Shown here one piece after another: positions 10,171 through 40,915 of a DNA stretch of 64,000 nucleotides (the stretch's first letter is position 1; the number at the start of each line of letters is the position of its first letter). The stretch is from Gemmatimonadales bacterium. Its GTDB lineage: Bacteria > Gemmatimonadota > Gemmatimonadetes > Gemmatimonadales > GWC2-71-9. The position numbers were made by a program, and so were the translations under genes. A model generated the notes under the pieces. That model was not told the origin of the DNA and did not search any database. It worked only from the letters and a program-made list of their open reading frames with translations. Location: NCBI GenBank assembly GCA_033764505.1, contig JANRIW010000020.1, positions 33,808 through 97,807 on the forward strand. The letters run 5' to 3'.

Positions 10171-10175
10171 CTCAG

Positions 10176-26709: not shown

Positions 26710-29502
26710 CTACCGCACCCGCACCGCCTCGAAGGTGATCCGCGCCCCCCACGACTTGTAGAGCGTGGCGTTGATCCCGCCCCAGGCCCGATAGGTGATG
26801 TCGATCACCCCCGAGGCCGTGGTGGTGGTGAAGGTGACGCTCGCCTGCTTGGTCGTGCCCGGATAGCCGGTGTAGCTGCTGCCACCGCCCCAGCCGAGGC
26901 CGGTGATCTGCCCCGCGTTGGGGACCGCGCCGCTCTCGAGGTAGCTCCCGTTCAGGAGCGGGTCGGCGGCGACCAGGCTCTGCGATCCGATGCTGGCGAC
27001 GCTGAGCATCGGTTGCGGCATCGCCGGGATGGTCGCGAAGTCCGTCTGCGGACTCGGCAGCATCCAGAGGCCGCGCCGCACCAGGCCCGGCGCATCCTGG
27101 GTCGCGAAGACCAGGGCGCCATCGCGTTCCCCGCGCTGGATTTCATTCCAGAACATGGTGTCGCCACGGAAACCGCTGACCAGCGTCGGCCAGCCGGAGG
27201 CGATTTCTCCCGGCGACAGCGGGATCGCCCCGTGTGCCACCGTCACCGAGGTGATCCGCCACACCGGGAAGCCGACGGTCACCACCGCCTTCGCGACGGC
27301 CAGCGTCAATCCCGGCAGCACCGCCGTGTTCGAGCGCTTGAGGGTCGCGGTCACGGTGTAGCTCCCAGAGGTGGCGTAGCTGTGCGTTGCGGTGCTCACG
27401 TTCTGGTTCAGCGTTTTGGCCGTGCCATCGCCCCAGTCCCACTCCATGGCGAAGCCTGCCGCCGGAGGATCCAGCACCGGCGCGCTGAATGATCCCGGCG
27501 CGCCGATGCCGAGCGACTGGGTGGCGGGATCGATCTTGAGAATGCGTCTGAGCAGCGGCGTGTTCAGCGGAATCAGCGGTCGGAAGGCGTTCTGGAGTTG
27601 CCCCACGAGATCGGCGCTGTTCACGGTGGAGAGCACTGCCCCGGAGAGGTTGCCGAGGCCGAGGGCATCAAACATCGCGCTGCCGCCGCAGCCGGTGCCG
27701 ATGACGCTCAACGCACCGCCGGTGCATGGCCCGCGCGTCGTCGCCACCGTCTGCTGCGTCGGCACGCTGTACTGCGGAATGGCGCCGGTGCAGTCCTCAC
27801 AGACCGCGCGGATCTTGGCGGTCGAGTCGCGGATCACGAGCGGGGCGTCGTCGGGCGCCCACGCCGCGCCCGTCGTGCCCTGCACTTCGAGCGTGACCTT
27901 CGGGAAGCCGGCCAGCGCCGCCATCTGGTTGTTCAGCGTCTGCCGCAGGTTGCCGACGGAGCTGAGGGCATTCGTGATCATCGCCGGCACGTCGGCATAC
28001 AGCTCCAGCGGAAACAGGAAGCTCCCTCCGACCGGCAGCACCGCTTCGGCGGGAAGCGACTGTCCATCCGCCGTCTGCTTGAACGCGCGCGAGAGGAAGC
28101 CACTCGAGCCGAGCGTCAATTGGCCCGCCGACGATGGCTCGGCTGGGGCCGTGAACCAGAGCGTTGTCGGCGTGAGCCGCACGAGCGAGGCGAACATCCC
28201 GCGACCGACGCGTCCGGTGGGGACATCCGACAACCGTTCGGAGAAGAGCATCAGCTGCGGCAGCCGCGAGGTGAGCAGCATCCCGCGGAGGTTGAGCGAG
28301 GTGAGCTCGTCGCGGCTGAGCGGTGACAGCGAGGCGTAGAGTGCGGCGAGGTCGGAGAGGACGCCACTGACGGCGGCGCTGCCGGAGAAGTGGCGCTTCG
28401 CCATGATGACCAGGCCGGCGAGCGCGGCGGTATCGGCGAGCGTGCCGAGGGTGGGGACGGTCTTGATGGTGGAGGCGAAGGGAAGATTCTGGATCTTGCC
28501 AAGGATCCCCATCACGGGGATCGCGGGGCCGTGTCCTTGCGGGAAGGCGTACGAGCCGACCTCGGGCGCCGGCCAGAGATTGCTGAACGCCGCATCGAGC
28601 TCAGCGGGGGAAAGGCCGAGAGACTGGAGCGTGGCATGCACCGGGAAGCCGTAGCCCTCGATGCCGACCAGGGAGGCGCCGTCACGGAGTGATCCCGGCG
28701 CTGCCGGCCCGGCGATCAGCGAGGCGTTGAAGTGCGCCGCCGCGACGGTGATGCTCGATGCATCGCTCGCGATGATGGGGACCATCTCCATCCGGTTGCG
28801 CACCGGGTCGAGCATGACAAAGAGCGGGGTGGTGCCAGCGACGCGGGTGACGGGAATGCGGAGCGTCATGAGTCGGTCGGCGCGGCGCTGGGTGGTCTGG
28901 ATCAGGAGTGGCGGCCCCGCCACGGTGAAGCCGGCCGGGAGCGCGGGCGTAGGGGCATTGGTGGCGAGGGTGATGTTCCACGTCCCGGCGGTCGCGAAGG
29001 CGCCGCTCGGCACGGTGAGCCGGAGCCCCTGGTAGGCATGGCCCGCGGTGGTGATCTCGAGGGTGCCGCCACCGGCGCCGATGTTCTGGCCGGGGATGCT
29101 CCCGGCTCCGGGGACGGCGGTTGCCGCGATGCGAAGCGGCGGGAGGGTGCCGACCGTGGCGACGAGGACATTGCGCCCTTCGGCGCTGCCCAGGGTCCAG
29201 GTGCCGGGGGAGGCGGTGCCGGTGCTGGAGGTGGTGGCGCTGGTCCGGGTGATGGTGCCGCCGCCGGAGTCGACGCGGAAGGTGACGGTCACCCCGGCGA
29301 CTGCGGCCCCCGAGGCGTCGGTGACCTTCACCGCGACCTGAGTAGGCACGGCGGTGGCGGGGGCGGCCTGCTGGGCGTCGCCGCTCGCGACGGCGATCGC
29401 CGCCGGGGCCCCGCCACTCTGCGCCGGCCCGCTCGGCTCCGCGCCGCCGCAGGCCGCGCCGAGCAGGGTGAGGGTGGTGAGCGCCAGGGACGGGTACCGC
29501 AT
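26710..29502 (-). CDS. large surface lipoprotein with Ig-like and PKD domains
   Basis: 930 aa. Lipobox LLGAACGG. Ig-like segment AIAVASGDAQQA...VTVTFRVDSGGG. PKD signature WDWGDGTAKTL...HSYATSGSYTVTATL. Confidence 0.8.
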   Translation of the reverse strand: MRYPSLALTTLTLLGAACGGAEPSGPAQSGGAPAAIAVASGDAQQAAPATAVPTQVAVKVTDASGAAVAGVTVTFRVDSGGGTITRTSATTSSTGTASPGTWTLGSAEGRNVLVATVGTLPPLRIAATAVPGAGSIPGQNIGAGGGTLEITTAGHAYQGLRLTVPSGAFATAGTWNITLATNAPTPALPAGFTVAGPPLLIQTTQRRADRLMTLRIPVTRVAGTTPLFVMLDPVRNRMEMVPIIASDASSITVAAAHFNASLIAGPAAPGSLRDGASLVGIEGYGFPVHATLQSLGLSPAELDAAFSNLWPAPEVGSYAFPQGHGPAIPVMGILGKIQNLPFASTIKTVPTLGTLADTAALAGLVIMAKRHFSGSAAVSGVLSDLAALYASLSPLSRDELTSLNLRGMLLTSRLPQLMLFSERLSDVPTGRVGRGMFASLVRLTPTTLWFTAPAEPSSAGQLTLGSSGFLSRAFKQTADGQSLPAEAVLPVGGSFLFPLELYADVPAMITNALSSVGNLRQTLNNQMAALAGFPKVTLEVQGTTGAAWAPDDAPLVIRDSTAKIRAVCEDCTGAIPQYSVPTQQTVATTRGPCTGGALSVIGTGCGGSAMFDALGLGNLSGAVLSTVNSADLVGQLQNAFRPLIPLNTPLLRRILKIDPATQSLGIGAPGSFSAPVLDPPAAGFAMEWDWGDGTAKTLNQNVSTATHSYATSGSYTVTATLKRSNTAVLPGLTLAVAKAVVTVGFPVWRITSVTVAHGAIPLSPGEIASGWPTLVSGFRGDTMFWNEIQRGERDGALVFATQDAPGLVRRGLWMLPSPQTDFATIPAMPQPMLSVASIGSQSLVAADPLLNGSYLESGAVPNAGQITGLGWGGGSSYTGYPGTTKQASVTFTTTTASGVIDITYRAWGGINATLYKSWGARITFEAVRVR

Positions 29503-29635: not shown

Positions 29636-30172
29636 ATGTTCAAGCAGTTCGGAATCGCCGGCCTGGCCCTCGCGGCCGCCATGGTGTGCCCATCCTCCGC
29701 CAGCGCGCAGAACCCGCAGACCCGCTCGGGCCTCTGGGGCAATGTCGGCTTCGGCGTCGGCAGTTACGGCTGCGAGGGATGCGGCGACCGCGAGTCGGGT
29801 GGCGCGGGGACGTTCGCCCTCGGCGGGACGCTGAGCCGCAAGGTGCTCCTCGGCGCGGGCGTGAATGTCTGGACCAAGGAGATCAACGGCGTGGACGTGA
29901 CCGCCGGCACGGTGACGGCGATGATCCGCTTCTACCCGTCGGCCACCGGCGGCTTCTTCCTGGTGGGCGGGCTCGGGTACGGCACGGAGCAGATCTCCTC
30001 GGGCAACACGTCGCTTTCGGAGTCGGGCGCTGGTGCGGTCCTCGGGCTTGGCATGGACATCCGCGTGGGCAAGAAGCTCTCGCTGACGCCGTTCTGGAAT
30101 GGCAACGGGATCAGCCTGGACAGCGGCAACAGCAGCTTCGGTCAGCTCGGCATCAGCCTGACGGTGCACTGA
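29636..30172 (+). CDS. outer-membrane beta-barrel protein
   Basis: Signal peptide MFKQFGIAGLALAAAMVCPSSASAQ. Gly/aromatic beta-strand pattern. Confidence 0.6.
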   Translation: MFKQFGIAGLALAAAMVCPSSASAQNPQTRSGLWGNVGFGVGSYGCEGCGDRESGGAGTFALGGTLSRKVLLGAGVNVWTKEINGVDVTAGTVTAMIRFYPSATGGFFLVGGLGYGTEQISSGNTSLSESGAGAVLGLGMDIRVGKKLSLTPFWNGNGISLDSGNSSFGQLGISLTVH

Positions 30173-30174
30173 CC

Positions 30175-30660
30175 ATGACCGCCACACGATTCTTCCGACA
30201 GCTGGCCGCGGCCGCCGTGTTGCTGACCACCGCCTGCGGTGGTGGCAGCCCGACCGGCTCCGATGGCCCGACCTACGCGGCGATCGCCGACACCTATGTC
30301 GGCACCATCGGCGGCGTCTCGCAGGGGTACCTCGCCGATCTGGACTTCACGCTCACCATCGCGCAGTCGGGCGGGAGCCTCTCGGGCACCTACGCCCTCG
30401 ACGGGACGCTCTTCGATGGGGTGGACACGTACGCGGTGGCGGGCACCGGGACGATTACCGGGAGCATTCAGTCCGGCAACAATCCGTCGGTCAACCTGAC
30501 GATCCGCACCTCGGCCTGCCCGAACTACACGGCGCAGTTCTCGGGGACGTATGACACGGCCAACCAGCGGCTCACCATCATCGGGCCGATGGAGTTCTTC
30601 AACGAGGGGACGTGCACGGTGGGGTTGAGCATTCCGACGACGTTGGTGATGACGAGGTAA
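30175..30660 (+). CDS. lipoprotein, paralogue of 13539..14000
   Basis: Lipobox LLTTACGG. Blocks IADTYVG and QSGGSLSGTY are shared with the 13539 protein. Confidence 0.6.
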   Translation: MTATRFFRQLAAAAVLLTTACGGGSPTGSDGPTYAAIADTYVGTIGGVSQGYLADLDFTLTIAQSGGSLSGTYALDGTLFDGVDTYAVAGTGTITGSIQSGNNPSVNLTIRTSACPNYTAQFSGTYDTANQRLTIIGPMEFFNEGTCTVGLSIPTTLVMTR

Positions 30661-30734
30661 GGGGTACAGCCCGAACAGGTGCCGAACACGCCACCCCGCC
30701 CGTTTGCCCCCGGGTGGGGTTATCGTCCAAAGGA

Positions 30735-30855
30735 GTGACCCGGAACCGGCGACCAGTAATCAGTAACAGCGATTGGAGCATGAGCCCTGGCCACGGGTCA
30801 CTGGTCACAGGTTACTCGCTCTCACGTCTCACTTCTCACGACTCTCGACGCTCGG
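30735..30855. repeat. heptamer-armed hairpin that runs into the deaminase pseudogene
   Basis: Left arm GCGACCA GTAATCA GTAACAG. Right arm TCACTGG TCACAGG TTACTCG CTCTCAC GTCTCAC TTCTCAC GACTCTC. Confidence 0.8.
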
Positions 30856-31190
30856 TGCCGTCGCAGGTGGCATCCCGATCGGTTCGGTCCTGGTGATTGA
30901 TGGCCGGATTGTGGGCCGAGGGCACAACCAGCGGGTGCAGTAAAGCCGCCGCAACGGACGAGCGACGTGAGTTTCCAAGTACCGGGTTGGTTTGCCGTTC
31001 GCTGTTCGCCTTTCGCTGTTCGCTGTTCGCTGTTCGCTGGCCGTTGCACTCGACGCTGTCGCCGTGCGACATGTGCAGTGGGGCGGCGCTGATGTACGGG
31101 ATCCCGAAGATCGTGGTGGGGGAGAACCGGACGTTTCAGGAACCCGAGGCGTACGTGCGGTCGCGTGGCGTGGAGGTCTTGGTGGTGTGA
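30851..31190 (+). pseudogene. decayed cytosine/nucleoside deaminase (yeast FCY1-type CMP/dCMP-deaminase fold)
   Basis: The N-fragment GGIPIGSVLVIDGRIVGRGHNQRVQ ends in TAA at 30941. The C-fragment, in another frame, reads TLSPCDMCSGAALMYGIPKIVVGENRTFQEPEAYVRSRGVEVLVV. There is no start codon. The HxE zinc-ligand segment is replaced by sequence containing a GCTGTTC heptamer array (30994..31042). Confidence 0.65.
30994..31042. repeat. heptamer array inside the pseudogene
   Basis: GCCGTTC, GCTGTTC, GCCTTTC, GCTGTTC x3, GCTGGCC. Confidence 0.9.
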
Positions 31191-31504
31191 CCGACGCTGA
31201 GCCACCTCATCGCGACCGCAGCCCCCTCGCATGGTGATGATTCTTCTGGTATAGCGGATCGCGGCCCAGATGGCGGGGGTGGAGCGGTTGGTGCTGCACT
31301 TGATGGATGAGGCAGGGGTGGGGACAGCGGAGTTCGCGATATCGCGGGCGTGGGAGTTGGTGGCGGAGGGTGAGGTGGGTTTGCGGTGGTGAGTGGGGAA
31401 TGGGATGTGAAGGAACGCAGGCCTCGGCGGTCGGGTTGTCCGTCAAGCGAGTTCCAGAACCGGACGCCGCGGTTGAATGTGCAGGTGGGCAACCTCGAGG
31501 AGCT

Positions 31505-32194
31505 ATGCGCGAATTCGAATGGGAGGCCGTCCAGGCCAGCATTAATCGTCAGATAGGCCGCCTTGTCCACGCACAGAGAACCCTTGCCTCCATCCATGAG
31601 TCGTTGGACAGCCGTCGACGTTCTCCCCTTGAGGAAGACTACATCGAACGCAGCCTGACGGGAGGACCAGTAGTCGGGCCTCATGTCCGAGACTTCGATG
31701 GCGTCAAAGTCACAACATGGCGGCTCCACCGCCGAGGGAAAGGAGCGAGGGATATAAGGGGTGCCGACATCCTGTATGAGATCGTAGGGAAGAAATTCGT
31801 CCTCATCCAGAACAAAATTCCAAGTAATGCCCGGGTGCTTGGGGATGCGGCGCAACTTCGTGAACTGCGAAGCTCTTGTCCGCAACCTTGCCCGCCGACG
31901 CCGAAGACGTTCGTTGGCTGTTCAAGCTGGCATTGCCTCAATGAACCGACTGGTGGAAGCCGTTATCATCAGGCTTGCCAGGCAGAGGCACTATTCGGAA
32001 AGGCAAAGTCAAGGCAGGTCCTGAGCTTTCAAGGTGGCTTGGGGGAAGCTGCATTCGAAAGCATGTTCGCCGAGTGCAGAATCGGGGCTAGTGTCGAACC
32101 CACGCCCGTGTTGTTATGGGCAGCCCAGTCAATTGCGCAGGGAAATGCCGTCTTCTTTGTGATCCAAGAGGGGGAATGGCGGCCCTTGACCTAG
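31505..32194 (+). CDS. hypothetical protein, possible PD-(D/E)xK-like nuclease
   Basis: 229 aa with GADILYEIVGKKFVLIQNK (D...QxK). An equally long antisense ORF (31136..31885) makes the strand choice uncertain. Confidence 0.4.
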   Translation: MREFEWEAVQASINRQIGRLVHAQRTLASIHESLDSRRRSPLEEDYIERSLTGGPVVGPHVRDFDGVKVTTWRLHRRGKGARDIRGADILYEIVGKKFVLIQNKIPSNARVLGDAAQLRELRSSCPQPCPPTPKTFVGCSSWHCLNEPTGGSRYHQACQAEALFGKAKSRQVLSFQGGLGEAAFESMFAECRIGASVEPTPVLLWAAQSIAQGNAVFFVIQEGEWRPLT

Positions 32195-32322: not shown

Positions 32323-33168
32323 ATGAAATACTGGCTGGTGAAGGGCAGCCCCAAGAGATATGATCTCGACGAAGCGGTCCAGCTGGGATTAGTAGAGACT
32401 TGGGAGACGAGGAAACCACCCCGGGATTGGCGAGTAGGTGACCGCCTGTTCTTCTGGTCATCTGCACCGCGATTGCACCTCGTTGCCATCGGGAGCCTGT
32501 GTGGCGTTGTGGGAAAGCCGACGCGTGATGGACAGACGCTCTATTCTGTGGAATACCTCACAGATCCGCTGCCGAACCGGGTTGGCCAAGACCGGCTGCG
32601 AGCTGATCCCATCTGCGCCGGAGCAACCTTTCTGAAGCCTGCGGTTGCTCAGGGTGTGCTTGAAGTTAGCACGTCAGAAGCACATCAGATGTACCGCTTG
32701 TTGCGCGCGGCGAACCTAGGCATGGCCGATCGTTGGCCCGACATCCCCCAGGTGGACAATACGGCTAAGGTTGAAGCTCAAACACTTGCAAGTGCGCCAG
32801 TTTCAAGCACCCAGCCAGTGCCCTCCAATTGGTCTTTCGATCAGCTCGCCGATCTGGAAGCAGAGCGGACTTTCGCAGTACGTCGAGAGCAGCAGATGAT
32901 CCGGCAGCTCTTGCTCAATGGGCAGAGCACGGGCGGCTGTTGCATCTGTGGAGAATCCTTGCCGGCCGAGCTACTCATCGCGGCACACATCAAACCACGT
33001 CGACTTTGCACCGACGCAGAGAAACGCGATGCCCGTCACAACACAGCACTTATGTGCACACTCGGATGCGACGCGCTATTCGAGAGAGGCTTCATTGGTG
33101 TCAAGGAGGGCAGGGTCTGTACGGGTCCGGTTGCGTCGCCGGTAGTAGCGGTCCAACGATCGGTCTGA
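32323..33168 (+). CDS. EVE (PUA-like modified-base reader) domain fused to an HNH endonuclease
   Basis: N-terminus MKYWLVKGSPKRYDL...GDRLFFWSS is typical of EVE. C-terminus CCICGESLPAELLIAAHIKPRRL...HNTALMCTLGCDALFERGFIGV is typical of HNH_2. Confidence 0.8.
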   Translation: MKYWLVKGSPKRYDLDEAVQLGLVETWETRKPPRDWRVGDRLFFWSSAPRLHLVAIGSLCGVVGKPTRDGQTLYSVEYLTDPLPNRVGQDRLRADPICAGATFLKPAVAQGVLEVSTSEAHQMYRLLRAANLGMADRWPDIPQVDNTAKVEAQTLASAPVSSTQPVPSNWSFDQLADLEAERTFAVRREQQMIRQLLLNGQSTGGCCICGESLPAELLIAAHIKPRRLCTDAEKRDARHNTALMCTLGCDALFERGFIGVKEGRVCTGPVASPVVAVQRSV

Positions 33169-33394
33169 CGCCTGATTGGGAGAGATTGTTCGGCGTACTC
33201 GAAGGCGAGTACAAAGTATTTCCGATACCGACAGACACATTCGACAGTGTAGTAGCAAAAGTAGCGTTTGTTGCGCCCGGGATCTAACGCTTCGGCCCAT
33301 GCCTTGGTATCGGCAGGTCTTGCCGCAGAGCCGGACCACGCAGAATACTCACGCTCTCAATTCACCCATCCACTTTCACAACACTGAGGGTCCG

Positions 33395-35233
33395 ATGCAC
33401 CTGAGGTTTCCTGAACTGATGGGTGGCCCTGTTCAAGGGTTGAATGATGCGGGGGTGGAAAATTTTCAAGGGGCGATTGATGAGTACCTCTCCCGGGAGT
33501 GTGGTCAGAACACGTGCGATGCCATCAGGAAAGATGTCAACACAGCGCGGCTCGAGTTTGACCGGATGACCGTGCCAACTGAGCAGATACCAGGGTTTGC
33601 GTCCTTGCGCGTGGCGTTGGCTGCGAGCCTAGTAAAGTGGGGCGAAAAGGATAAGGAGCGCGAGTTCTTTGAAACCGCAGTACATCTCGCTTCAAGAGAT
33701 GAAGTCGACGTTTTGAAGATCAGTGACTACGGTACAACTGGACTTACGGGAGAGGATGAGGAGGAGACTGGCCGCTGGTTCGCGCTCGTCAAGTCGCAGG
33801 GTGTTTCGAACAAGGGGAGCAGCGCTGGGGGTTCGTTTGGGATCGGCAAGAGTTCGCCCTTCGCCGCCTCAAGGTTTCGGACGGTCTTCTATGGGACACG
33901 CACTACGACTGGATCTGTAGCCCTTCAGGGAGTCAGTAGGCTAGTCACGCATAGCAACGCCGATGGACAGAAGACCCAAGGTGTCGGATTCATTGGTCAC
34001 TACGAATCACAAGGCAGTGACAGCGGAGGGCCAGTCTTTCGCGCAGTTCGGGATCCGCAAGAGATTCCTCCCTTGTTCAGACGGGAATTGCCTGGTACCG
34101 ATATCTGGGTTGTTGGGTACCGGAGTGGGGTAACGTGGGACCACGACTTAGTTCGATCGCTGCTCACCAATTTCTGGCCAGCGATTCATCGCGGCTCCGT
34201 CCAATTTCGTGTTGGTGCGCTGGAGATTTCGAAGGAGAATCTCGACGAGATGATTCTCCGCTACTCTGTCGGAGAGGATTTCGTTGCACATTTGTACTTC
34301 AAGGCTATCGCAAGTCAACCAATTCGAAAGAAGCTAAGGTCCGTCGGGGATTGCGAGCTGTATCTTACTAGCGCGAGTGCGGATCTGCCCAAGAAGATTT
34401 GCATGGCTCGCAACTCTGGGATGCGGATTTATGACTACCAGCCGAGAGCATGCCGGGTGCCCTTCAGCGGATTGTTCCTCTGCAGTGACGAGGAGGGGAA
34501 CAAGTTGTTGCGCCAGCTGGAGCCGCCCAAGCACGATGGGTGGGACTACAAGCGCATGGAGGACGCCTCCGGAAAGCGGGCCCTAGACGAAATCAAGGGG
34601 TGGATCCGGGATGAAGTGAAGAAATTGAACCCGCTCTTCGGTGGTAAGAGCTTTAATGAGACCGAACTGGCGAAATACTTACCAGACATACAGCCCGATG
34701 ACCACTCAGACCTCCTAAGTGACTCAACCGGAGCTTCGATTGACGAAAGTCTCGAGCCGAGGCCGACTCTCGACAGTGTTTTGGCGGTCGCGGTCAGGGC
34801 AAAGTCGATTTTCAAGGACTCTGGGGGAACTGCTGATGGCGGATATGGGAAGCAGGAGAGCACGGGAGGCGGAGACCACAACAGTGGAAATAGCGGCAAG
34901 AAGCCTAGGAGTGGAGGCGGAGGTGCGGACGATTCATCTCCACCCTCAGTCAAGGTGCGTAGCTATCGCTCTGCCGCCGATCGGTACGAAATGGTGATTC
35001 GCAGCGCCGTGGCCTATTCCGGCAGGTTGATTGTTCACGCGGTGGGCGAAGACGGCGCACTTGAAGGAGTTGAGCTTAAGTCGGCGTCGAGGGGCACGTC
35101 TGATGGCGAGGGTCTCACAGTTGGTGGAGGTACCATCAACGGCATCCGACTCGAGGCTAACATACCACTCCGCCTCTCGGTCGTTATCGGGGCGCTTGAG
35201 CGGCGATCACTAACCGCGGTGGTGCTTTCATGA
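33395..35233 (+). CDS. GHKL-superfamily (MORC/sacsin/Hsp90-like) ATPase, first gene of a three-gene operon
   Basis: ATG after GAGGG. N-box RECGQNTCDA, G1 ISDYGTTGLTG, G2 AGGSFGIGKSSPF, then a Gly/Ser-rich linker and a beta-rich tail of about 90 aa. 612 aa. Confidence 0.8.
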   Translation: MHLRFPELMGGPVQGLNDAGVENFQGAIDEYLSRECGQNTCDAIRKDVNTARLEFDRMTVPTEQIPGFASLRVALAASLVKWGEKDKEREFFETAVHLASRDEVDVLKISDYGTTGLTGEDEEETGRWFALVKSQGVSNKGSSAGGSFGIGKSSPFAASRFRTVFYGTRTTTGSVALQGVSRLVTHSNADGQKTQGVGFIGHYESQGSDSGGPVFRAVRDPQEIPPLFRRELPGTDIWVVGYRSGVTWDHDLVRSLLTNFWPAIHRGSVQFRVGALEISKENLDEMILRYSVGEDFVAHLYFKAIASQPIRKKLRSVGDCELYLTSASADLPKKICMARNSGMRIYDYQPRACRVPFSGLFLCSDEEGNKLLRQLEPPKHDGWDYKRMEDASGKRALDEIKGWIRDEVKKLNPLFGGKSFNETELAKYLPDIQPDDHSDLLSDSTGASIDESLEPRPTLDSVLAVAVRAKSIFKDSGGTADGGYGKQESTGGGDHNSGNSGKKPRSGGGGADDSSPPSVKVRSYRSAADRYEMVIRSAVAYSGRLIVHAVGEDGALEGVELKSASRGTSDGEGLTVGGGTINGIRLEANIPLRLSVVIGALERRSLTAVVLS

Positions 35234-36096
35234 TCATTCGCGATCGGTCCTTTCCGCATCCCGTGCTTGCACCATTTCTGGACGACGTGTCACCGAATGA
35301 GTTCGAATGCAGAGTCTTGGTTAGCGCGGACGCTGACCAATACTACCTTAGCGTCGCATTCAGCTATACAAATGAGAGTCTACAGACACTGGTAACGGCG
35401 GGGCTCGCTGTTCACTCGATTCATGTCGAGTGTAAGCGTAATTATTTTCGGCACTTGTACACGCTAAGCGACCGCGCCGGGGTATTGAGCATCAGGACCA
35501 GCGAAATCATTGGTCGCGTGGAGATTTCCGGTTTCATCAGTGCAGCAGTGCCTATACCTGACTACTCGATTGCCGGCGCCCATTCAGACTATGGCGATAC
35601 CGCATTCAACATCGAAATTGGGGACATTCTGGCTGCTGCCTCGACTGTGACGTTCGATGCATATACGGACTACGACCCCCTCTCGACAATCGCCTCGATT
35701 CTCATGGTACGCTGTTCGGAAGCGGAGGTGGATGGCCCCTTGAAACTCGATACCAGCGGGGATCTGCTAAACGTGACCCTGTCACAGTCTGACTACGCGC
35801 GCTACGTGGAGTTGAAAGGAGATCCGAGCCTTGGGGCATTGCTCGCTAACCAGATTGTAGTACCGGTCTTGGTGGAGGCGGTACACGAGATCAAGGCAAC
35901 GCCAGCGGAAGAGATCGAACTCGAAATGCAAAAGCGCTGGTACCGTTCGATCGTGCGGAAGTTTGAGGTGTTGGATCTTGATGTGATGGGGGGCGATACA
36001 CCTGCAGTTGAGCTGACACAGATTCTGCTTCAGCTACCCCTACGCCGCTCGCTTGAGGGATTGATCCAGATCACCGAGATGGATGGTGATGTATGA
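35230..36096 (+). CDS. hypothetical protein (operon gene 2), possible PD-(D/E)xK core
   Basis: ATGA overlap with gene 1. 288 aa. VLVSADADQYYLSVAF ... HSIHVECKRNYF could be a D...ExK motif. No other motif recognised. Confidence 0.7.
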   Translation: MIIRDRSFPHPVLAPFLDDVSPNEFECRVLVSADADQYYLSVAFSYTNESLQTLVTAGLAVHSIHVECKRNYFRHLYTLSDRAGVLSIRTSEIIGRVEISGFISAAVPIPDYSIAGAHSDYGDTAFNIEIGDILAAASTVTFDAYTDYDPLSTIASILMVRCSEAEVDGPLKLDTSGDLLNVTLSQSDYARYVELKGDPSLGALLANQIVVPVLVEAVHEIKATPAEEIELEMQKRWYRSIVRKFEVLDLDVMGGDTPAVELTQILLQLPLRRSLEGLIQITEMDGDV

Positions 36097-36827
36097 GGCT
36101 TCCCTTTTTCCGTGCAGAGTTCCTCACTCGTCTCAAAGCGAATGCGGACGAGAACGCTTCGAAGTATGGACTGGACACGGGATGGATCGAGGCTCTTGCG
36201 AAGACTCAGTCCTATTTTCGCGAAAGCAATCAAATCGTTGATCCACCACCCGAGTTGATTTTTGCTGGGGAAGACAATCCTCAACATGACGCTGAGAATG
36301 CGAAGAGAATCTATTTGTGGCTTGCGGATCTGACCCCGGCCGTTGCGATGGAAGAGCGCCTTTGGGCATTTCTCACGCATTGCACCTTCCCGGCCTACAT
36401 GCGGGCTCGTTGGCCTGTATCCGGACCAGGGACTTTGCTAAGGCGATATTTTCTTGAAGGACAGTCGTTCGCCGCCCTTTCACGGAACGGCATCGGACGG
36501 TTGTGGTGGGCGGGCTACTTGACGAGGGACGAACGGCGCATCAACCCATTCGAGCTGACAGAGACGCTATTCCTGAGACAAGATGTGCAAGTTGCTCTGC
36601 TTGAGCGGTCATTGGGAAAGTGCGCGACAGCAAGGACAGCAGTTCTCGACTATGTCAGAACGAATCAAGAGTGGCTAGGGGAGTATTCCTTCGGGCGTCG
36701 AGTGCAGGTCTTGGTCAAGGAGCTGAATCTCTTGGGAGGAGTAGCCGTCCTCGATGCTTTGCCTCCGGCTTCGATCACTGCATACCTTCATAAGGTGAGC
36801 AAAGAGCTTCGCGAGAACAATGACTAA
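36093..36827 (+). CDS. hypothetical protein (operon gene 3)
   Basis: ATGA overlap with gene 2. 244 aa, helical-looking (ERLWAFLTHCTFPAYMRARW, GRLWWAGYLT). No domain recognised. Confidence 0.7.
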   Translation: MRLPFFRAEFLTRLKANADENASKYGLDTGWIEALAKTQSYFRESNQIVDPPPELIFAGEDNPQHDAENAKRIYLWLADLTPAVAMEERLWAFLTHCTFPAYMRARWPVSGPGTLLRRYFLEGQSFAALSRNGIGRLWWAGYLTRDERRINPFELTETLFLRQDVQVALLERSLGKCATARTAVLDYVRTNQEWLGEYSFGRRVQVLVKELNLLGGVAVLDALPPASITAYLHKVSKELRENND

Positions 36828-36838
36828 CTTCTGCCTTC

Positions 36839-38080
36839 TTAACCATGGATTGCGCATGCCCCACGCACATCAGCGACGAAGTCCTCAAACGAAAGCAGGT
36901 GCGCTTGGATCTCGTCGGGGTAGCTCCTGATGAGGGACGCTGGTACGACGAGCTGCACTCCGTGCTGTTGCATCTCACGGTGCTGGGAAACCGAAACGCC
37001 CTCCTGCAGCGTCAGCAGGTGCTTCACCGTGATCCGATCAGCTTCGTTGATGACCTGGCGCCACCGATCCTTGCAGGTTGTCTTCGCGGCAAGCATACGG
37101 AGCCTCGTCGCCGGCCACGCCTGATTGTGGTACGCTTCGATTGACGGGAAGATGAAGTCCGGAGTCTTCTTGTCTTCGGTTTGCGGTGTCCAGCTGAAGG
37201 CGACAGTTTCCTCCTGAAAAATCTGGCGGGCCTGCAGTTCGAGTGACCGACCACTCCGGGATTTTCTCCGATTGGTCAACGAGCCGGCGAACGCCACGAA
37301 TGCGTCAACCGATGCGAATCCCGCGGCAATCCGGGGCATTGCATGGAAGCGCTCGATCGATCGGAACACGTCGTACTCGCAATCACGACGTGCCATCAGC
37401 CGATCATCGACCGGCTTCCGGTGGTGTGTACGGTTTGCCACCACCCACTGCACGATCTCGTCGCCCGAGGGGAACGCTTCGCGCCAGGTCGCAGGAATGT
37501 TGGCGTCCTCGAGTGCGCACGGTCCGTCCTGCTCTTCGCCGATTCCGAGGCCCGACGGGCTGACAAGCAGGGGCCTGCCGGGCTCGACGCCCTCAACCCG
37601 CTCGAGGAGGTAGTCTTCCTCTGCAGCACTCCGGCAGCGCCAGACCCGGAGCGCATCCGCATCCTTGCCTGTTTGTACCCGAAACGCCATCACCACCAGT
37701 GAGCCGGTTGCGTCGGGTTCCACCATCGCGGCATCCCGACCACCCCATTTGGTGAGGCGCGCTTCATCGCGCCCGTTGCGCTGCCGCTTCACGCGCTTCG
37801 AGTTGTACCAGATGAGGCGGAGGTCCATCGATTCCACGTGTGAGTCGACCACCGCCGGCAAGACGAGATCGGGGTTTTCCTGGGTATCAGCGCGCGCTGA
37901 GAGTCCAGGAAAGGCGGCCGCGAGCAGCGCTTTCCCCACATGCGGACCACCTTGGTGGACATTGGGCTTGGCGTAGGTGTCGTTCGCGGAGAGGTACTTC
38001 ACATGCCAGAGCCACTCAGGACCTGAAACGTCGATCAGCCAGTTCTCAAACTCGCGTACCGGAAGCGGTAGGTCACTCAC
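36839..38080 (-). CDS. type IIE restriction endonuclease, EcoRII family
   Basis: Close by-eye match to E. coli EcoRII: YLSANDT (N-terminal effector domain), NRRKSRSGRSLELQ, TPDFIFPS, RMLAAKTTCKDRWRQVINEADRI, LFTLQEGVS-like LLTLQEGVSVSQ. GTG start overlaps the vsr stop (GTGA) and is preceded by GGAG. Confidence 0.9.
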   Translation of the reverse strand: MSDLPLPVREFENWLIDVSGPEWLWHVKYLSANDTYAKPNVHQGGPHVGKALLAAAFPGLSARADTQENPDLVLPAVVDSHVESMDLRLIWYNSKRVKRQRNGRDEARLTKWGGRDAAMVEPDATGSLVVMAFRVQTGKDADALRVWRCRSAAEEDYLLERVEGVEPGRPLLVSPSGLGIGEEQDGPCALEDANIPATWREAFPSGDEIVQWVVANRTHHRKPVDDRLMARRDCEYDVFRSIERFHAMPRIAAGFASVDAFVAFAGSLTNRRKSRSGRSLELQARQIFQEETVAFSWTPQTEDKKTPDFIFPSIEAYHNQAWPATRLRMLAAKTTCKDRWRQVINEADRITVKHLLTLQEGVSVSQHREMQQHGVQLVVPASLIRSYPDEIQAHLLSFEDFVADVRGACAIHG

Positions 38081-38481
38081 CGTTGGATTCTCCTGACAAG
38101 CGCATCGAGTGAACGTTCCCCGGTTCGGCATTCCCAGACCACGATCACCCGCCACCCGAGCCGCCGAAGCGCGGCGATGTTACTCGCGTCTCGCGCAACG
38201 TTTGCGCGGAACTTCGACACCCAGAACTCGCGGTTGGTCTTCGGCGTCGCAGCATATCGGCATCCGTGGTGTCGGTGCCAGAAGCAGCCATGCACCAGAA
38301 TCACCACACCCCAGCGCGGCAGGACGATGTCCGGACGCCCGGGAAGATCAACGGGGTGCAGCCGGAACCGGAATCCGGCACGATGCAGATGGGAGCGGAC
38401 GATTCGTTCAGGGTTTGTGTTCTTGCCGCGGATTCCGGCCATCATCCGGCTTCGCGTCGCGCGGTCGACGATGTCCGTCAC
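38077..38481 (-). CDS. vsr: very-short-patch repair endonuclease
   Basis: 134 aa with RSRMMAGIRGKNTNPE, LPGRPDIVLP and LVHGCFWHRH motifs. Confidence 0.9.
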   Translation of the reverse strand: MTDIVDRATRSRMMAGIRGKNTNPERIVRSHLHRAGFRFRLHPVDLPGRPDIVLPRWGVVILVHGCFWHRHHGCRYAATPKTNREFWVSKFRANVARDASNIAALRRLGWRVIVVWECRTGERSLDALVRRIQR

Positions 38482-38484
38482 CGT

Positions 38485-39756
38485 CTACGCTGCCTCTGAG
38501 GGGAGCTCCTGCTGAAAGCCGGCGCCACGACGTTCGCCTCTCACGTACGGTACCAGCGCCTTGGCCACTGCCGCGACCACAGGTACGGCAACCGAATTGC
38601 CGAACTGCTTGTATGCCTGTGTGTCCGAGACGTGAATCCGGAATGGCTCACGTCCCGGTCGATCGAAGCCCATCAACCGGGCGCACTCACGCGGCGTCAA
38701 CCGCCTCGGCCTGTCTCCGTCCCGGCGGATCAGGATCTCCGAACCGTCCTTGAAGTAGCGTGCCGAGAGTGTGCGTGCGACGTCATCGGGACCGACCAGC
38801 CCGAAGCCGAATCCGTTCCCAGCCGCCTTGTGCTTCTTGGCATACCCTTGGAGGTACTCCCAGAGGCCGGGAGTCAGGGTATAGCGTGGAAGCACTGCGC
38901 CAGCCGGATCAAGGAAGCGATCATCGACCGTCTCCGATCCGTCCTCGGGGTGGAGGATGTCCTTGAGCTTCGGCCCCTTCTCTACGGGAGGGAGATCGAC
39001 CTCATCCCAATCGAAGCGCGCACCTAGATCGGGGTGCAATCCGACGATGAAGATCCGCTCGCGATGCTGCGGCACGAAGCGCTTGGCATCGATGATCTTC
39101 CATGCGATCTCGTAGCCGAGCTTCTCGGCCAGGGTTCGGCGGATGACCTCGAATGTCCTGCCCTTGTCGTGCGACGCCAGATTCTTGACGTTCTCGAGCA
39201 CGAAGGCCTTCGGCTGCTTCGCCGCGATGATCCGTTCGATGTCAAAGAAGAGGGTGCCCTGGGTCTCGCAGTCGAAGCCGTGCTTCCTGCCGAGCGCGTT
39301 CTTCTTGGAGACTCCGGCGATGGAGAACGGCTGGCAGGGAAATCCGGCCAACAGGATGTCGTGATCGGGGATGTCCGCTTCCGGGATCACGGTGATATCC
39401 CCGTGCACTTCATGGTCCCCAAAGTTCGCTCGGTACGTCTTCTGGGCGTACTTGTCCCACTCTGACGTGAAGACACACCTCCCCCCAGCCTCCTGGAACG
39501 CGAGGCGGAAACCCCCGATCCCGGCGAAAAGGTCGATGAAGGAGAACTGACCCTTCGCCGGCGCTTCCGGAATGAGGCCGAGTAGATACTGAAACACGGC
39601 CTCGCGAATCTGCCCTTCGCCGGCTTCCCAGCGAGCAATGGTCCTAGGCTTCCACCCGCACGCCTCTGCCAGCTGCTCTTGGGTCATTCCCAGTGAATCA
39701 CGGAGCCGGCGGAGGTCGCTGCCGGAGCGATTGTCGGGTTTTGTTTGGGGGGACAT
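38485..39756 (-). CDS. dcm: DNA (cytosine-5) methyltransferase, Dcm/M.EcoRII family, with N-terminal XRE-type HTH
   Basis: [10 protein letters not shown] (motif I), GFPCQPFS (IV), ENVKNL (VI), [10 protein letters not shown] (VIII), [10 protein letters not shown] (X), with long colinear similarity to E. coli Dcm. [30 protein letters not shown] at 39792 is an alternative start. Confidence 0.9.
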
Positions 39757-39788
39757 AAGGATGACATTACGACATGTTGGCGGGACTT

Positions 39789-40862
39789 TCAAGCCCCCCT
39801 GTCTCGCCCTCTTCGGGCGATTGTCTCAGTGCGGGACCCGATGCCGATTGGCAAGGATCGGAGGGCGAGCGCATGGCGCCTGATGAACTCCGGTGGGAGT
39901 GCATTTCCGATCATGAGCGCGACCTTGTACCGCCCATGTTCGAGAGGGAATCGATAGTCTCTGGGGAACGATTGCAGAAGTGCAGCCTCCCTGAGACTGA
40001 TCGCCCGATCCTGGGTTGGGTGGAGGAATCTCCCCTTTGAGGGGTTGATGCAACCGCCTGTGATTGTGGGAGCGGGCTTATCCCAAGCCATCCGCCCGTA
40101 GACGTCCTTATAGCCATCACTCCGCTGGTGACATGGCAGCTGGGACTCGATTGGGAGTGCCGACCTACTCCCCCCGTTGGCGGGGATCATCGAGATTACA
40201 CGATTGATCCGATCAGAATGTTTGCTACCATGGTGATGGAGCGGGTCAGCGCTTCGCACTGGTGCAGGCAGACGCCCGATTGCTGCACGGACTGTCTTCC
40301 GCTTACGGGAGCGCGCGGCAAATTCAGGAGTACCACTCTTCGATGCCAGCAAGATGAGCCTTCGTCGATTCTGTGCGACACCGTAGTCTGCCACATTCAA
40401 CACATCATATCGCAGCCGGTACCCGCAGGCCCGCAAGCCGGCGCAGAATTTCCGAAAATTGTGCGTACGCGCCAGCGCCGGAACGTTCTCGATCATCACA
40501 CTGCGCGGCTGCATCGACCTGACGAGTCTGAGGACGTCAAGGATGAGGCCCTTATCCGCATCCCTCGGTCGCCGCCTTCCATTCCTAGTTCTCATGGTGG
40601 AGTAGCTTTGGCACGGGGGGCAGGCCGCCAACAAGTCCAGGTTCCCAGGTGAAATGCGTGAATCCCGAAGCAGCGCGGGACCGCTGACCTTCTTCACGTC
40701 GCATTCCCACAACTTGACCTTCGGGTTGTTCATCTTGTACGTAATGCAGGCGACCGGGTCGAGTTCGACAGCGCCGATTACTGCATAGCCAGCTGCGAGC
40801 AGGCCTGTGGTGAGGCCACCTGCTCCCGCGAAGAGGTCAACAGCAGTGTGCGTTCGGTTCAT
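39789..40862 (-). CDS. second DNA (cytosine-5) methyltransferase
   Basis: VDLFAGAGG (motif I), CPPCQSYS (IV), ENVPAL (VI), [10 protein letters not shown] (VIII), GNALPPEF (X). Confidence 0.9.
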
Positions 40863-40915
40863 TGGGCTCGACGTGATATGGATTCCGGTGCGTGCTTCTC
40901 GCTTCTGGCCCTACG

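What the first reader, a model, noticed from the sequence alone, without database searches (positions are those of the whole stretch)
33395..36827. Translationally coupled GHKL-ATPase plus two unknown proteins: candidate undescribed defence operon
Three same-strand ORFs (612, 288 and 244 aa) are joined by ATGA start/stop overlaps at 35230-35233 and 36093-36096. A 227-nt gap and a GAGGG ribosome-binding site precede them. Protein 1 has the Bergerat-fold motifs in canonical order: N-box RECGQNTCDA, G1 ISDYGTTGLTG, G2 AGGSFGIGKSSPF. A long middle region, a Gly/Ser-rich linker and a beta-rich tail follow. It therefore looks MORC/sacsin/Hsp90-like rather than like a histidine kinase. Proteins 2 and 3 carry no domain I can name. 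The operon sits between an EVE-HNH gene and an EcoRII R-M operon, inside a low-G+C island made only of defence genes. I cannot match this triplet to any named system I know. The nearest idea is the MutL/Z1-type clusters, but the partner genes differ.
Basis: partly seen in the sequence, partly recalled or inferred. Interest (0 to 1): 0.88.

Follow-up and report, generated by a model that had tools for sequence, protein, structure and literature searches.

The report
Methylase-linked GHKL ATPase defence triplet (PDC-M33)
This three-gene operon is real and belongs to a widespread family already listed, but never tested, as phage-defence candidate PDC-M33; elsewhere it nearly always sits beside a cytosine DNA methylase, so it is probably the "restriction" half of an unusual restriction-modification-like system with no recognisable nuclease.

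Summary
Three translationally coupled genes (612, 288 and 244 aa) lie at 33395-36827 in a low-GC island. Protein A is a GHKL ATPase with a transducer (S5) domain. Only the fold search (Topo VI-B, Hsp90/TRAP1, MutL) and conserved motifs show this; no sequence profile detects it.

The operon is not uncatalogued. All three proteins match PADLOC's PDC-M33 A/B/C over their full length. PDC-M33 is one of 145 untested candidates from Payne et al. 2024.

New here:
- A-B-C order is fixed in every one of 46 loci where the contig allows a check, across many phyla, plasmids and a phage.
- 40 of 46 loci carry a C5 cytosine methyltransferase. In 32 it lies within 400 nt, usually on the same strand, and Vsr often follows.
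- MORC/Z1/DUF4420 or EcoRII-Dcm modules recur next door.
- B is a double beta-sandwich plus helical bundle. C is DUF6339, rich in conserved Arg and Trp. Neither shows a nuclease signature.

Best reading: an m5C-linked, ATP-driven restriction-like module. The window copy has no methylase in its own operon and probably relies on the neighbouring Dcm. Function is inferred, not shown. I file it as a new member of a known but uncharacterised kind, of moderate interest.

The parts
33386..33390 (+). GAGGG Shine-Dalgarno-like motif, 4 nt upstream of the ATG of gene A
   Evidence: Read directly from the sequence. No sigma-70-like promoter was found in 32900-37300.
33395..35233 (+). Gene A (612 aa): PDC-M33A, a divergent GHKL ATPase with four regions (listed below)
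   Evidence: PADLOC PDC-M33A E=7.7e-131, profile positions 4-617 of 627. No Pfam, NCBIfam, PHROG or PDB-sequence hit. AlphaFold mean pLDDT 80.4. Foldseek: Topo VI-B, TRAP1/GRP94/Hsp90 and MutL-N40.
33395..34144 (+). A residues ~1-250: Bergerat-fold ATP-binding domain (N-box E35/N39/D42; G1 D111-x-x-T114-x-G116-x-x-G119; G2 G146-x-x-G149-I-G151-K152)
   Evidence: These residues are 95-100% conserved in 42 sequences of median 31% identity. Fold match.
34145..34624 (+). A residues ~251-410: transducer/S5-like middle domain. R339 is invariant and may be the gamma-phosphate sensor (inferred by analogy to Hsp90 R380 and MutL K307). The motif N369...E376-x-P378-x-H380...W383...R387 is invariant.
   Evidence: About 450 Foldseek columns align with Hsp90/TRAP1 N-terminal plus middle domains. 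Conservation. The ExxxH pattern fits the description of paraMORC2 in PMC2292703.
34625..34936 (+). A residues ~411-514: disordered Gly/Ser/Asp/Glu-rich linker
   Evidence: pLDDT below 50 over residues 415-513. It is the least conserved region, with a mean top-residue frequency of 0.28.
34937..35230 (+). A residues ~515-612: C-terminal beta-sandwich domain, moderately variable; possibly a DNA- or partner-binding module
   Evidence: pLDDT 83-92 with nine strands. Only generic beta-sandwich matches, E>0.01. Conservation 0.37.
35230..36096 (+). Gene B (288 aa): PDC-M33B, with two beta-sandwich domains (~25-184) and a helical bundle (186-286). No family in Pfam.
   Evidence: PADLOC E=2.5e-59. AlphaFold pLDDT 88.7. 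Foldseek against PDB and BFVD gives only FnIII/Ig-like matches at E>=1e-3. The family has 2,957 representative clusters, and the top 150 are all stand-alone proteins. Conserved polar residues: D19, C68, R74, Y112, D120, S156.
36093..36827 (+). Gene C (244 aa): PDC-M33C, Pfam DUF6339, with a conserved Arg/Trp-rich core (R89, W91, Y102, R106, W107, R136, W138, W139, R172)
   Evidence: Pfam PF19866 E=2.6e-42. PADLOC E=3.9e-53. Conservation. No PDB relative by profile search.
38485..39792 (-). HTH-fused Dcm-type C5 cytosine methyltransferase: the likely self-protecting methylase shared by EcoRII and, by inference, A-B-C
   Evidence: PF00145 E=1e-84. It is 58% identical to the methylase abutting A-B-C in L005, and 51-58% identical to the Dcm-type methylases in the loci of L033 and L018 (1.4 and 6.9 kb from A-B-C; L018 also has another C5 methylase 19 nt downstream). 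The link to A-B-C is inferred, not shown.
38080..38484 (-). Vsr (very-short-patch repair endonuclease) between EcoRII and Dcm. It belongs to the m5C module, and Vsr accompanies A-B-C in 15 of 46 loci.
   Evidence: phmmer match to the Vsr of L003 at E=2e-29. Reciprocal hits to Vsr genes in 15 loci.

Best explanation
The operon is a member of the PDC-M33 family. I read this family as the restriction-like half of an m5C-based restriction-modification-like defence system.

Shown:
- A, B and C are an obligate, co-inherited trio.
- A is an intact GHKL ATPase with a transducer domain.
- The trio is physically linked, mostly in the same operon, to C5 cytosine methyltransferases and often to Vsr.
- It sits in defence islands, plasmids and a prophage.

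Inferred:
- A dimerises on ATP binding and clamps or loops DNA, as MutL, Topo VI-B, Hsp90 and MORC ATPases do. R339 may sense the gamma-phosphate.
- B (beta-sandwich plus helical bundle) and C (Arg/Trp-rich DUF6339) supply DNA recognition, methylation-state reading, or both.
- DNA carrying the m5C marks of the linked methylase is spared, and unmethylated invading DNA is inactivated.
- The inactivating chemistry is unidentified. The best candidate site is the invariant E376-x-P-x-H380 cluster at the end of A's S5 domain. A non-nucleolytic mechanism, such as topological entrapment, is not excluded.
- The window copy has no methylase in its own operon and most likely depends on the adjacent Dcm (38485-39792), which it would share with EcoRII.
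For: - Family membership: all three PADLOC PDC-M33 models match over full length.
- Fixed trio: A-B-C is adjacent and in the same order in 39 of 45 genome loci. The other six are contig ends or gene fragments. The same holds in metagenome, plasmid and phage loci, even for C relatives of only 28-37% identity.
- GHKL plus transducer fold: Foldseek gives Topo VI-B at 7e-7, TRAP1/GRP94/Hsp90 at about 1e-6 over ~450 columns, and MutL-N40 at 3e-3. Catalytic residues are 95-100% conserved.
- Methylase linkage: 40 of 46 loci have a C5 methyltransferase. In 32 it is within 400 nt, and in 30 of those on the same strand; about 4% would be expected if placement within +/-10 kb were random. Vsr is present in 15 of 46 loci, often directly after C.
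- Co-inheritance: methylase and A-B-C co-diverge within the Paenibacillus and Chthoniobacterales clades.
- Defence context and mobility: low-GC island; neighbours are EcoRII, Z1 helicases, MORC/DUF4420, Shedu, DISARM-like genes, CBASS and Type IV enzymes; 26 plasmids and 2 phage records carry A. Payne et al. chose the cassette because it is embedded in BREX, DISARM or Type I R-M systems.
- Precedents: GHKL ATPases in methylase/Vsr-linked R-M operons were predicted by Iyer et al. 2008 (PMC2292703). A GHKL-nuclease fusion (VcSduA) protects against phage and needs its ATPase (PMC12137116).
- Window-specific: its Dcm is 58% identical to the methylase abutting A-B-C in L005. EcoRII with Dcm recurs beside A-B-C in four unrelated lineages.
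Against: - No experiment exists for any family member. PDC-M33 is listed as untested.
- No nuclease or other effector domain is recognisable in A, B or C. B's acidic and His residues are not conserved in a wide sample.
- In the window, the nearest methylase is 1.66 kb away on the opposite strand and already has a canonical partner, EcoRII.
- Six of 46 loci have no C5 methylase in the flank. Those loci carry an extra ~75-aa gene instead, so methylase dependence may not be universal.
- Methylase families are shuffled relative to A-B-C between clades. That is awkward for a classical sequence-matched restriction enzyme.
- C's structure was not predicted.
Confidence: 0.55

Rival explanations
1. A-B-C is a defence system that does not depend on methylation. 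It would sense infection and then act by abortive infection or direct attack, and it merely tends to nest beside R-M genes. C5 methylases would be neighbours, not functional partners.
For: Six of 46 loci lack any C5 methylase and sit next to DISARM-like, Type IV, CBASS or MORC/Z1 genes. In 15 loci a conserved ~75-aa gene, not a methylase, precedes A. Methylase families are shuffled relative to A-B-C. The window copy has no methylase in its operon. The cassette was discovered through embedding in other systems.
Against: Thirty of 46 loci have a same-strand C5 methylase within 400 nt, often with overlapping or abutting stop and start codons. That is tighter than defence-island clustering. The linkage is specific to C5 methylases plus Vsr rather than methylases in general. 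Methylase and A-B-C co-diverge within clades.
Confidence: 0.22
2. A-B-C is a repair or maintenance accessory for m5C methylation. It would be a dedicated MutL-like module that helps Vsr correct T:G mismatches from m5C deamination, rather than an immune effector.
For: A has a MutL-like GHKL plus transducer fold. Operons of the form methylase-A-B-C-Vsr occur in Verrucomicrobiota. E. coli MutL is known to interact functionally with Vsr, as cited in PMC2292703. No nuclease is visible in A, B or C.
Against: Only 15 of 46 loci have Vsr. Paenibacillus loci have two methylases and no Vsr. Some loci lack a C5 methylase entirely yet keep an intact A-B-C in defence islands, plasmids and a prophage near its integrase. 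Patchy, horizontally transferred, low-GC distribution is typical of defence or selfish modules. A 1,144-aa three-protein repair accessory for an orphan methylase has no evident selective rationale.
Confidence: 0.08
3. A-B-C is an auxiliary part of the neighbouring Z1-helicase/MORC-type system, forming one larger machine. In the window, A would supply the GHKL subunit that the Z1 helicase and second methylase (39789-42862) otherwise lack.
For: Z1 helicases occur within 10 kb of A-B-C in 12 of 46 loci, MORC-type HATPase_c_3 in 14 and DUF4420 in 10, in Bacillota and in metagenomic lineages. The window's Z1 gene has no MORC-type GHKL or DUF4420 partner nearby. Iyer et al. describe GHKL, Z1 helicase, Dcm and Vsr operons.
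Against: Most loci (34 of 46) have no Z1 gene in the flank, including the window's closest relatives. Where Z1 is present it usually comes with its own MORC-type GHKL and nuclease, and often a methylase, which makes a self-sufficient unit. In the window, Z1 lies on the opposite strand with the EcoRII-Vsr-Dcm cassette in between.
Confidence: 0.1

Closest known systems
PADLOC phage defence candidate PDC-M33 (Payne, Hughes, Fineran & Jackson 2024, bioRxiv 10.1101/2024.01.29.577857; cassette CAS_00129)
   Same: All three proteins match the three models over full length, in the same order and on the same strand.
   Different: Nothing differs, since the window operon is a member. However, PDC-M33 is only a catalogue entry: untested and with no domain or mechanism annotation. 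The GHKL fold, C5-methylase/Vsr linkage, small fourth gene and family size reported here were not found in any searchable text.
MORC/paraMORC GHKL ATPases of restriction-modification operons (Iyer, Abhiman & Aravind 2008, PMC2292703)
   Same: GHKL plus S5/transducer architecture. Operonic association with Dcm-type methylases and Vsr. Patchy, laterally transferred distribution. A's invariant ExxxH at the end of the S5 domain fits the text description of paraMORC2, and Bacillota are well represented.
   Different: A is not detected by Pfam HATPase_c_3 or HATPase_c. It is not related by profile-profile comparison to the MORC-type GHKLs encoded next door (hhalign probability 1%). Its partners are B and C, both uncharacterised (B's modelled fold has no informative match; C is DUF6339, structure not predicted), rather than an SF2 helicase plus an RE-fold nuclease.
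Shedu type I-D / paraMORC3 (VcSduA; PMC12137116)
   Same: It is a GHKL ATPase in an experimentally validated anti-phage system. The ATPase glutamate is required, and a dimeric clamp model was proposed.
   Different: VcSduA is a single protein fused to a DUF4263 PD-(D/E)xK nuclease and has no methylase. A-B-C has no recognisable nuclease, has three subunits and is methylase-linked.
Topoisomerase VI B subunit, Hsp90/TRAP1 and the MutL N-terminal domain
   Same: These are the best structural matches to A residues ~1-410, covering the ATP-binding and transducer/middle domains.
   Different: Sequence identity is about 10%. No Topo VI-A/Spo11-type (Toprim plus 5Y-CAP) partner was found, because B is a beta-sandwich protein. 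There is no MutL C-terminal endonuclease domain. A instead ends in a disordered linker and a beta-sandwich.
CglI/NgoAVII-type ATP-dependent restriction enzymes and Mza (GHKL plus Z1) clusters
   Same: These are C5-methylase-linked, ATP-dependent, multi-subunit restriction systems. A Z1 helicase of this type (PADLOC Helicase_II, 2.8e-94) lies 4 kb away in the window, and such helicases recur near A-B-C elsewhere.
   Different: A, B and C match no CglI, NgoAVII or Mza model. The Z1 genes form separate neighbouring units.

Membership tests
PADLOC PDC-M33 | Hits to the PDC-M33A, B and C models | tested here: met
   E = 7.7e-131, 2.5e-59 and 3.9e-53, each covering nearly the whole profile.
PADLOC PDC-M33 | The three genes are adjacent, on the same strand, in the order A>>B>>C | tested here: met
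   33395-35233, 35230-36096 and 36093-36827, all on the + strand. The cassette order FAM_02818>>FAM_02838>>FAM_01881 has three members.
GHKL (Bergerat-fold) ATPase superfamily | Motifs I-III: N-box Glu/Asn, G1 DxGxG-like and G2 GxxGxG | tested here: met
   E35, N39, D111, G116, G119, G146, G149 and G151 are 95-100% conserved in 42 diverse homologues.
GHKL (Bergerat-fold) ATPase superfamily | Bergerat fold followed by a transducer/S5-like domain | tested here: met
   Foldseek probability 1.00 to Topo VI-B, TRAP1, GRP94 and Hsp90, with E down to 7e-7; also matches MutL-N40. The model's pLDDT is above 90 over most of residues 1-410.
GHKL (Bergerat-fold) ATPase superfamily | Detection by sequence profiles (Pfam HATPase_c or HATPase_c_3) | tested here: not met
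   No Pfam hit at E<=1. No precomputed Pfam domain in 120 homologues. The PDB profile search found nothing.
MORC family (Iyer et al. 2008) | MORC-specific S5 motif and sequence relatedness to MORC-type HATPase_c_3 proteins | tested here: not met
   hhalign of the A family against 11 MORC-type GHKLs from neighbouring genes gave probability 1% and E=0.051.
paraMORC2 (Iyer et al. 2008) | [quoted passage not shown] | tested here: inconclusive
   E376-P-P-x-H380 is 100% conserved and lies at the end of the S5-like domain. No paraMORC2 sequences were available for comparison.
paraMORC2 (Iyer et al. 2008) | Direct sequence membership in the published family | not testable with these tools
   The alignments and gene identifiers are in figures and an external supplement that are not held.
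Classical restriction-modification system | A DNA methyltransferase in the same gene cluster | tested here: inconclusive
   For the family the feature is met: 40 of 46 loci have one, 30 abutting on the same strand. For the window, no methylase is in the operon; the nearest is Dcm, 1,661 nt away on the opposite strand, which is also EcoRII's partner.
Classical restriction-modification system | A recognisable endonuclease domain in the restriction component | tested here: not met
   No nuclease family or fold was found in A or B. C matches only DUF6339, and its fold was not predicted.
Classical restriction-modification system | Restriction of unmethylated DNA and protection by the cognate methylation | not testable with these tools
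   This requires experiments.
Shedu type I-D / paraMORC3 | A DUF4263 PD-(D/E)xK nuclease domain fused to the GHKL | tested here: not met
   No DUF4263 or Shedu hit in Pfam or PADLOC. The C-terminus of A is a beta-sandwich.
Mza (Gao et al. 2020; GHKL plus Z1 cluster) | Matches to the Mza protein models | tested here: not met
   A, B and C hit only PDC-M33 models at E<=1. The window's separate Z1 protein hits MzaC only weakly (3.3e-18) and Helicase_II much better (2.8e-94).
Pfam DUF6339 (PF19866) | The domain match exceeds the gathering threshold | tested here: met
   Protein C scores 145 bits against a cutoff of 23.2, E=2.6e-42.

The most novel reading that the evidence does not exclude
PDC-M33 could be a new class of m5C-dependent self/non-self discrimination. 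In this reading, a Topo VI-B/Hsp90-like GHKL clamp and two uncharacterised partners (one with no informative fold match, one of unknown structure) read cytosine-5 methylation status without needing a fixed recognition sequence, so the module could work with interchangeable methylases. It would then neutralise unmethylated DNA through an unrecognised nuclease site (the invariant ExxxH cluster) or through ATP-driven topological entrapment or compaction without cleavage. That would make it a prokaryotic counterpart of MORC-type silencing.
Probability: 0.2. Interest if true: 0.85.

Novelty: new member of a known kind. Interest (0 to 1): 0.55.

Why it matters
The family is large. B alone has about 3,000 clusters at 50% identity. 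It spans many bacterial phyla, haloarchaeal plasmids and phages, yet none of its members has been tested and two of its three proteins have no known function or recognisable catalytic domain. This work makes three points that turn a bare catalogue entry into a testable hypothesis: the ATPase is a GHKL clamp, the module is tied specifically to C5 cytosine methylases and Vsr, and no nuclease can be recognised. Specific mutants and a clear prediction follow (toxicity without the methylase, and escape of m5C-modified DNA). If the system reads methylation without a fixed sequence, or acts without cutting DNA, it would add a new principle to restriction-modification biology. It would also bear on the proposed origin of eukaryotic MORC ATPases from bacterial R-M systems.

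Tried and rejected
- Sequence searches for A, B and C found nothing beyond PDC-M33 and DUF6339. These were Pfam, NCBIfam, PHROGs and PDB searches with single sequences and with profiles.
- Foldseek of B against PDB and against viral structures gave only generic FnIII/Ig-like beta-sandwich matches at E>=1e-3. B cannot be called a nuclease.
- I considered a metal-dependent active site in B (D18, D19, E67, E98, H118, D120). E67, E98 and H118 fall below 90% conservation in 148 diverse homologues, so I rejected it.
- I considered membership of A in the MORC family. Pfam HATPase_c_3 does not detect A, and hhalign against neighbouring MORC-type GHKLs gives probability 1%, so I rejected it.
- I considered a Topo VI-like A2B2 enzyme. 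No Toprim/5Y-CAP partner was found, since B has a different fold and C lacks a DxD motif.
- I looked for the conserved ~75-aa upstream gene in the window's 226-nt gap, and tested whether the in-frame TTG start at 33176 hides it. No homology was found in any frame.
- I tested whether the window's second methylase (39789-40862) is the cognate one. It is only about 29% identical to any A-B-C-linked methylase, whereas the Dcm-type one is 51-58% identical to methylases near A-B-C in L005, L018 and L033.
- Literature searches for PDC-M33, DUF6339, GHKL with anti-phage and methyltransferase terms, bacterial MORC with phage, and Bergerat with defence found no experimental study of this system.
- The Response_reg_2/HEF_HK paraMORC-related system (PMC8011034) was considered, but A does not match those Pfam families.
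- No island boundary marker was found. The only tRNA is at 10098-10171, far from the island.

Full report
**1.

The window has three + strand ORFs at 33395-35233 (612 aa), 35230-36096 (288 aa) and 36093-36827 (244 aa). ATGA stop/start overlaps join them. A GAGGG motif lies 4 nt upstream of the first ATG, after a 226-nt gap. The first ATG is the true start, because all homologues share the N-terminus MxLxFPxLxGG. The mechanical TTG extension from 33176 has no homologue.

The region lies in a low-GC stretch at about 30-44 kb (0.55-0.63 against 0.66-0.71). The sequence comes from a Gemmatimonadales MAG. The three proteins are 100% identical to 'hypothetical protein', 'hypothetical protein' and 'DUF6339 family protein' on a 179-kb contig.

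**2. Protein A is a GHKL ATPase, seen by fold and motifs only.**

Pfam, NCBIfam, PHROGs and PDB sequence or profile searches find nothing. An AlphaFold model built from 35 homologues is confident over residues 1-410 and 515-612, and disordered over 415-513.

Foldseek matches residues ~1-410 to three groups:
- Topo VI-B (7e-7);
- TRAP1/GRP94/Hsp90 (about 1e-6, ~450 aligned columns covering ATP-binding plus middle domain);
- MutL-N40 (3e-3).

No histidine kinase appears in the listed top 50. The tail matches only generic beta-sandwiches.

Across 42 homologues of median 31% identity, the following residues are 95-100% conserved:
- the N-box (E35, N39, D42);
- G1 (D111, T114, G116, G119);
- G2 (G146, G149, G151, K152);
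- R339;
- a cluster N369...E376-x-P378-x-H380...W383...R387.

So the ATPase is very likely active.

**3. Proteins B and C.**

B's model (pLDDT 88.7) has two beta-sandwich domains followed by a helical bundle. Foldseek against PDB and BFVD returns only FnIII/Ig-like hits at E>=1e-3.

An exhaustive profile search finds 2,957 representative clusters (1,093 at E<=1e-30). The top 150 are all stand-alone proteins of 220-306 aa (nearly all 270-306), so no domain fusion gives a clue. In 148 diverse members, only D19, C68, R74, Y112, D120 and S156 remain as conserved polar residues. That is not a convincing metal-nuclease site.

C is Pfam DUF6339. It has a conserved Arg/Trp-rich core and no PDB relative by profile.

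**4. The triplet is already catalogued.**

PADLOC-DB v2 models PDC-M33A, B and C match over full length at 8e-131, 3e-59 and 4e-53. Payne et al. 2024 derived the PDC systems by 'guilt-by-embedding' in BREX, DISARM or Type I R-M loci. PDC-M33 is cassette CAS_00129 (count 98), one of 145 untested candidates.

No searchable paper mentions PDC-M33 or DUF6339. No experimental study of an equivalent system turned up.

**5. The trio is an obligate unit with wide, patchy distribution.**

A scan of species-representative genomes found 45 loci. They come from Verrucomicrobiota, Planctomycetota, Kiritimatiellia, Bacillota (Paenibacillus, Listeria, Clostridia and others), Acholeplasma and Dehalococcoidia.

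In 39 of them A, B and C are adjacent in the same order. The other six are contig ends or A fragments. One genome has two copies, and several copies are frameshifted.

The closest relatives (58-62% identity) and the most distant C relatives (28-37%) keep the same arrangement. A-like genes are on 26 plasmids, including haloarchaeal ones, and in 2 phage records.

**6. The key new finding is linkage to C5 cytosine methylases.**

The genes abutting A-B-C elsewhere are PF00145 methylases, often with Vsr. Examples are methylase-A-B-C-methylase in Paenibacillus, methylase-A-B-C-Vsr in Chthoniobacterales, and A-B-C-methylase-x-Vsr in the window's closest relatives.

Tally over 46 non-redundant loci:

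| Neighbour within the flank | Loci |
|---|---|
| C5 methylase | 40 |
| Vsr | 15 |
| MORC-type HATPase_c_3 | 14 |
| Z1 helicase | 12 |
| DUF4420 | 10 |

Counting the plasmid locus L058, fetched after this tally, EcoRII lies beside A-B-C in four lineages.

The nearest C5 methylase is within 400 nt in 32 loci, and on the same strand in 30 of those. About 4% would be expected for random placement within +/-10 kb.

Within clades, methylase and A-B-C co-diverge. Between clades the pairing is shuffled:
- L005 and L006: A/B/C about 60% identical, methylases 26%;
- L006 and L009: methylases 78% identical, A 37%.

The six loci without a C5 methylase are in other defence contexts, three of them with non-C5 methylases. 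All six carry a conserved ~75-aa gene directly upstream of A. That gene is present in 15 loci but absent from the window.

**7. The window's own arrangement.**

Downstream and convergent, with stop codons only 11 nt apart, lie these genes:
- EcoRII (36839-38155);
- Vsr (38080-38484);
- an HTH-Dcm methylase (38485-39792);
- a second C5 methylase (39789-40862);
- a Z1 helicase of the CglI H-subunit type (40916-42862).

The Dcm-type methylase is 58% identical to the methylase abutting A-B-C in L005. It is 51-58% identical to the Dcm-type methylases in the L033 and L018 loci, which lie 1.4 and 6.9 kb from A-B-C. The second methylase is only about 29% identical to any A-B-C-linked one. EcoRII with Dcm, with or without Vsr, lies beside A-B-C in four unrelated lineages. 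I therefore infer that the window's A-B-C relies on Dcm methylation and shares it with EcoRII. This is not shown.

**8. Mechanism.**

The best-supported reading is a restriction-like module of an m5C-based R-M-like system. A would be an ATP-driven dimeric DNA clamp or looping motor, by analogy with MutL, Topo VI-B, Hsp90 and MORC. B and C would be obligatory partners for DNA or methylation-state recognition. The linked methylase would mark self DNA.

This matches the class of GHKL-containing, Dcm/Vsr-linked R-M operons predicted by Iyer et al. 2008. A's ExxxH motif fits their text description of paraMORC2, but membership could not be tested. A is not MORC-like by sequence. VcSduA gives an experimental precedent for a GHKL ATPase that is essential for phage defence.

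The effector chemistry is the main gap, because no nuclease is recognisable. The shuffling of methylases argues against a classical sequence-matched endonuclease. It leaves room for a methylase-guided or generic m5C-sensing mechanism.

The rivals are a methylation-independent defence system that merely nests in R-M loci, a Vsr/MutL-like repair accessory, and a subunit of the neighbouring Z1/MORC system. Each has some support but fits the whole data set less well.

**9. Verdict.**

The operon is a new member of the catalogued but untested PDC-M33 family, not an undescribed system. Three results add value beyond the catalogue entry and give sharp, testable predictions: the structural assignment of A, the strong C5-methylase/Vsr linkage, and the absence of any recognisable nuclease. 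Interest is moderate, at 0.55.

Noticed in passing
window 38080-38484 (-): A Vsr (very-short-patch repair endonuclease) gene lies between EcoRII and the Dcm methylase. With it, the cassette is a canonical EcoRII-Vsr-Dcm unit.
   Followed up: partly
window 39789-42862 (-): A second C5 methylase (357 aa) is followed by a 648-aa Z1-domain helicase (PADLOC Helicase_II 2.8e-94, the CglI H-subunit type). No recognisable nuclease (R) subunit, MORC-type GHKL or DUF4420 lies nearby. The adjacent ORFs 42870-43391 (-) and 43847-44665 (-) match nothing.
   Followed up: partly
L013, L017, L030-L032, L036-L039, L041, L048, L055-L058 (e.g. L048 7704-7925): A conserved ~75-aa protein (motif ...IRLIGNLSNRxNYxY...) with no family in Pfam or PHROGs directly precedes gene A in 15 loci. 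These include all six loci that lack a C5 methylase. It is absent from the window. It defines a second operon subtype and may be a regulator or a fourth subunit.
   Followed up: partly
L014-L016, L019, L020, L026, L029, L043 (e.g. L016 6307-20699): Paenibacillus carries a compound locus: PLD-ResIII helicase / C5 methylase / A / B / C / C5 methylase / HATPase_c_3 (MORC-type) / Z1 helicase / DUF4420 (PD-(D/E)XK). Two GHKL-based, methylase-linked modules therefore sit side by side.
   Followed up: partly
L017 10007-13528 and 18037-21597: Paenibacillus sepulcri has two A-B-C triplets about 4.5 kb apart on the same strand. The second is preceded by the small ~75-aa gene.
   Followed up: no
L057 (phage NatCom_9291 of [Clostridium] innocuum) 1907-5986: A complete small-gene/A/B/C set lies about 0.7 kb from the integrase gene, at one end of a 54.7-kb phage genome. 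It is followed by a DNA methyltransferase and an AAA_5 (McrB-like) gene. Its C protein is extended to 354 aa.
   Followed up: no
L011, L026, L040, L041, L042, L044, L045: Several genomes carry frameshifted or fragmentary copies of A, B or C. L042 is broken in all three genes and in its methylase. This suggests frequent decay, or in some cases assembly errors.
   Followed up: no
window 36827-36839: The stop codons of gene C (+) and EcoRII (-) are only 11 nt apart and no terminator-like hairpin lies between them. Convergent transcription of the two units could therefore collide.
   Followed up: no
window 32323-33168 (+): The EVE+HNH protein is a putative modified-cytosine-directed nuclease, encoded next to two C5 methylases. 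No homologue lies near A-B-C in any other locus, so it is an independent neighbour. How it coexists with m5C self-methylation is unexplained.
   Followed up: partly
window 29686-32194 and 26710-29502: The left part of the low-GC island holds three ORFs (324, 136 and 295 aa) with no family match. A 930-aa PKD/Big_1 surface-type protein borders it. No tRNA lies at the island edges, and no search for an integrase was made; the only tRNA is tRNA-Phe at 10098-10171.
   Followed up: partly
L048 4369-5652 (-), L051 9260-11320 (-), L053 10257-12308 (-): MORC-type HATPase_c_3 genes also sit beside A-B-C in metagenomic lineages. In L051 and L053 the gene lies next to one or two C5 methylases, one of them fused to HhH-GPD. 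These may be further uncharacterised GHKL-methylase modules.
   Followed up: no
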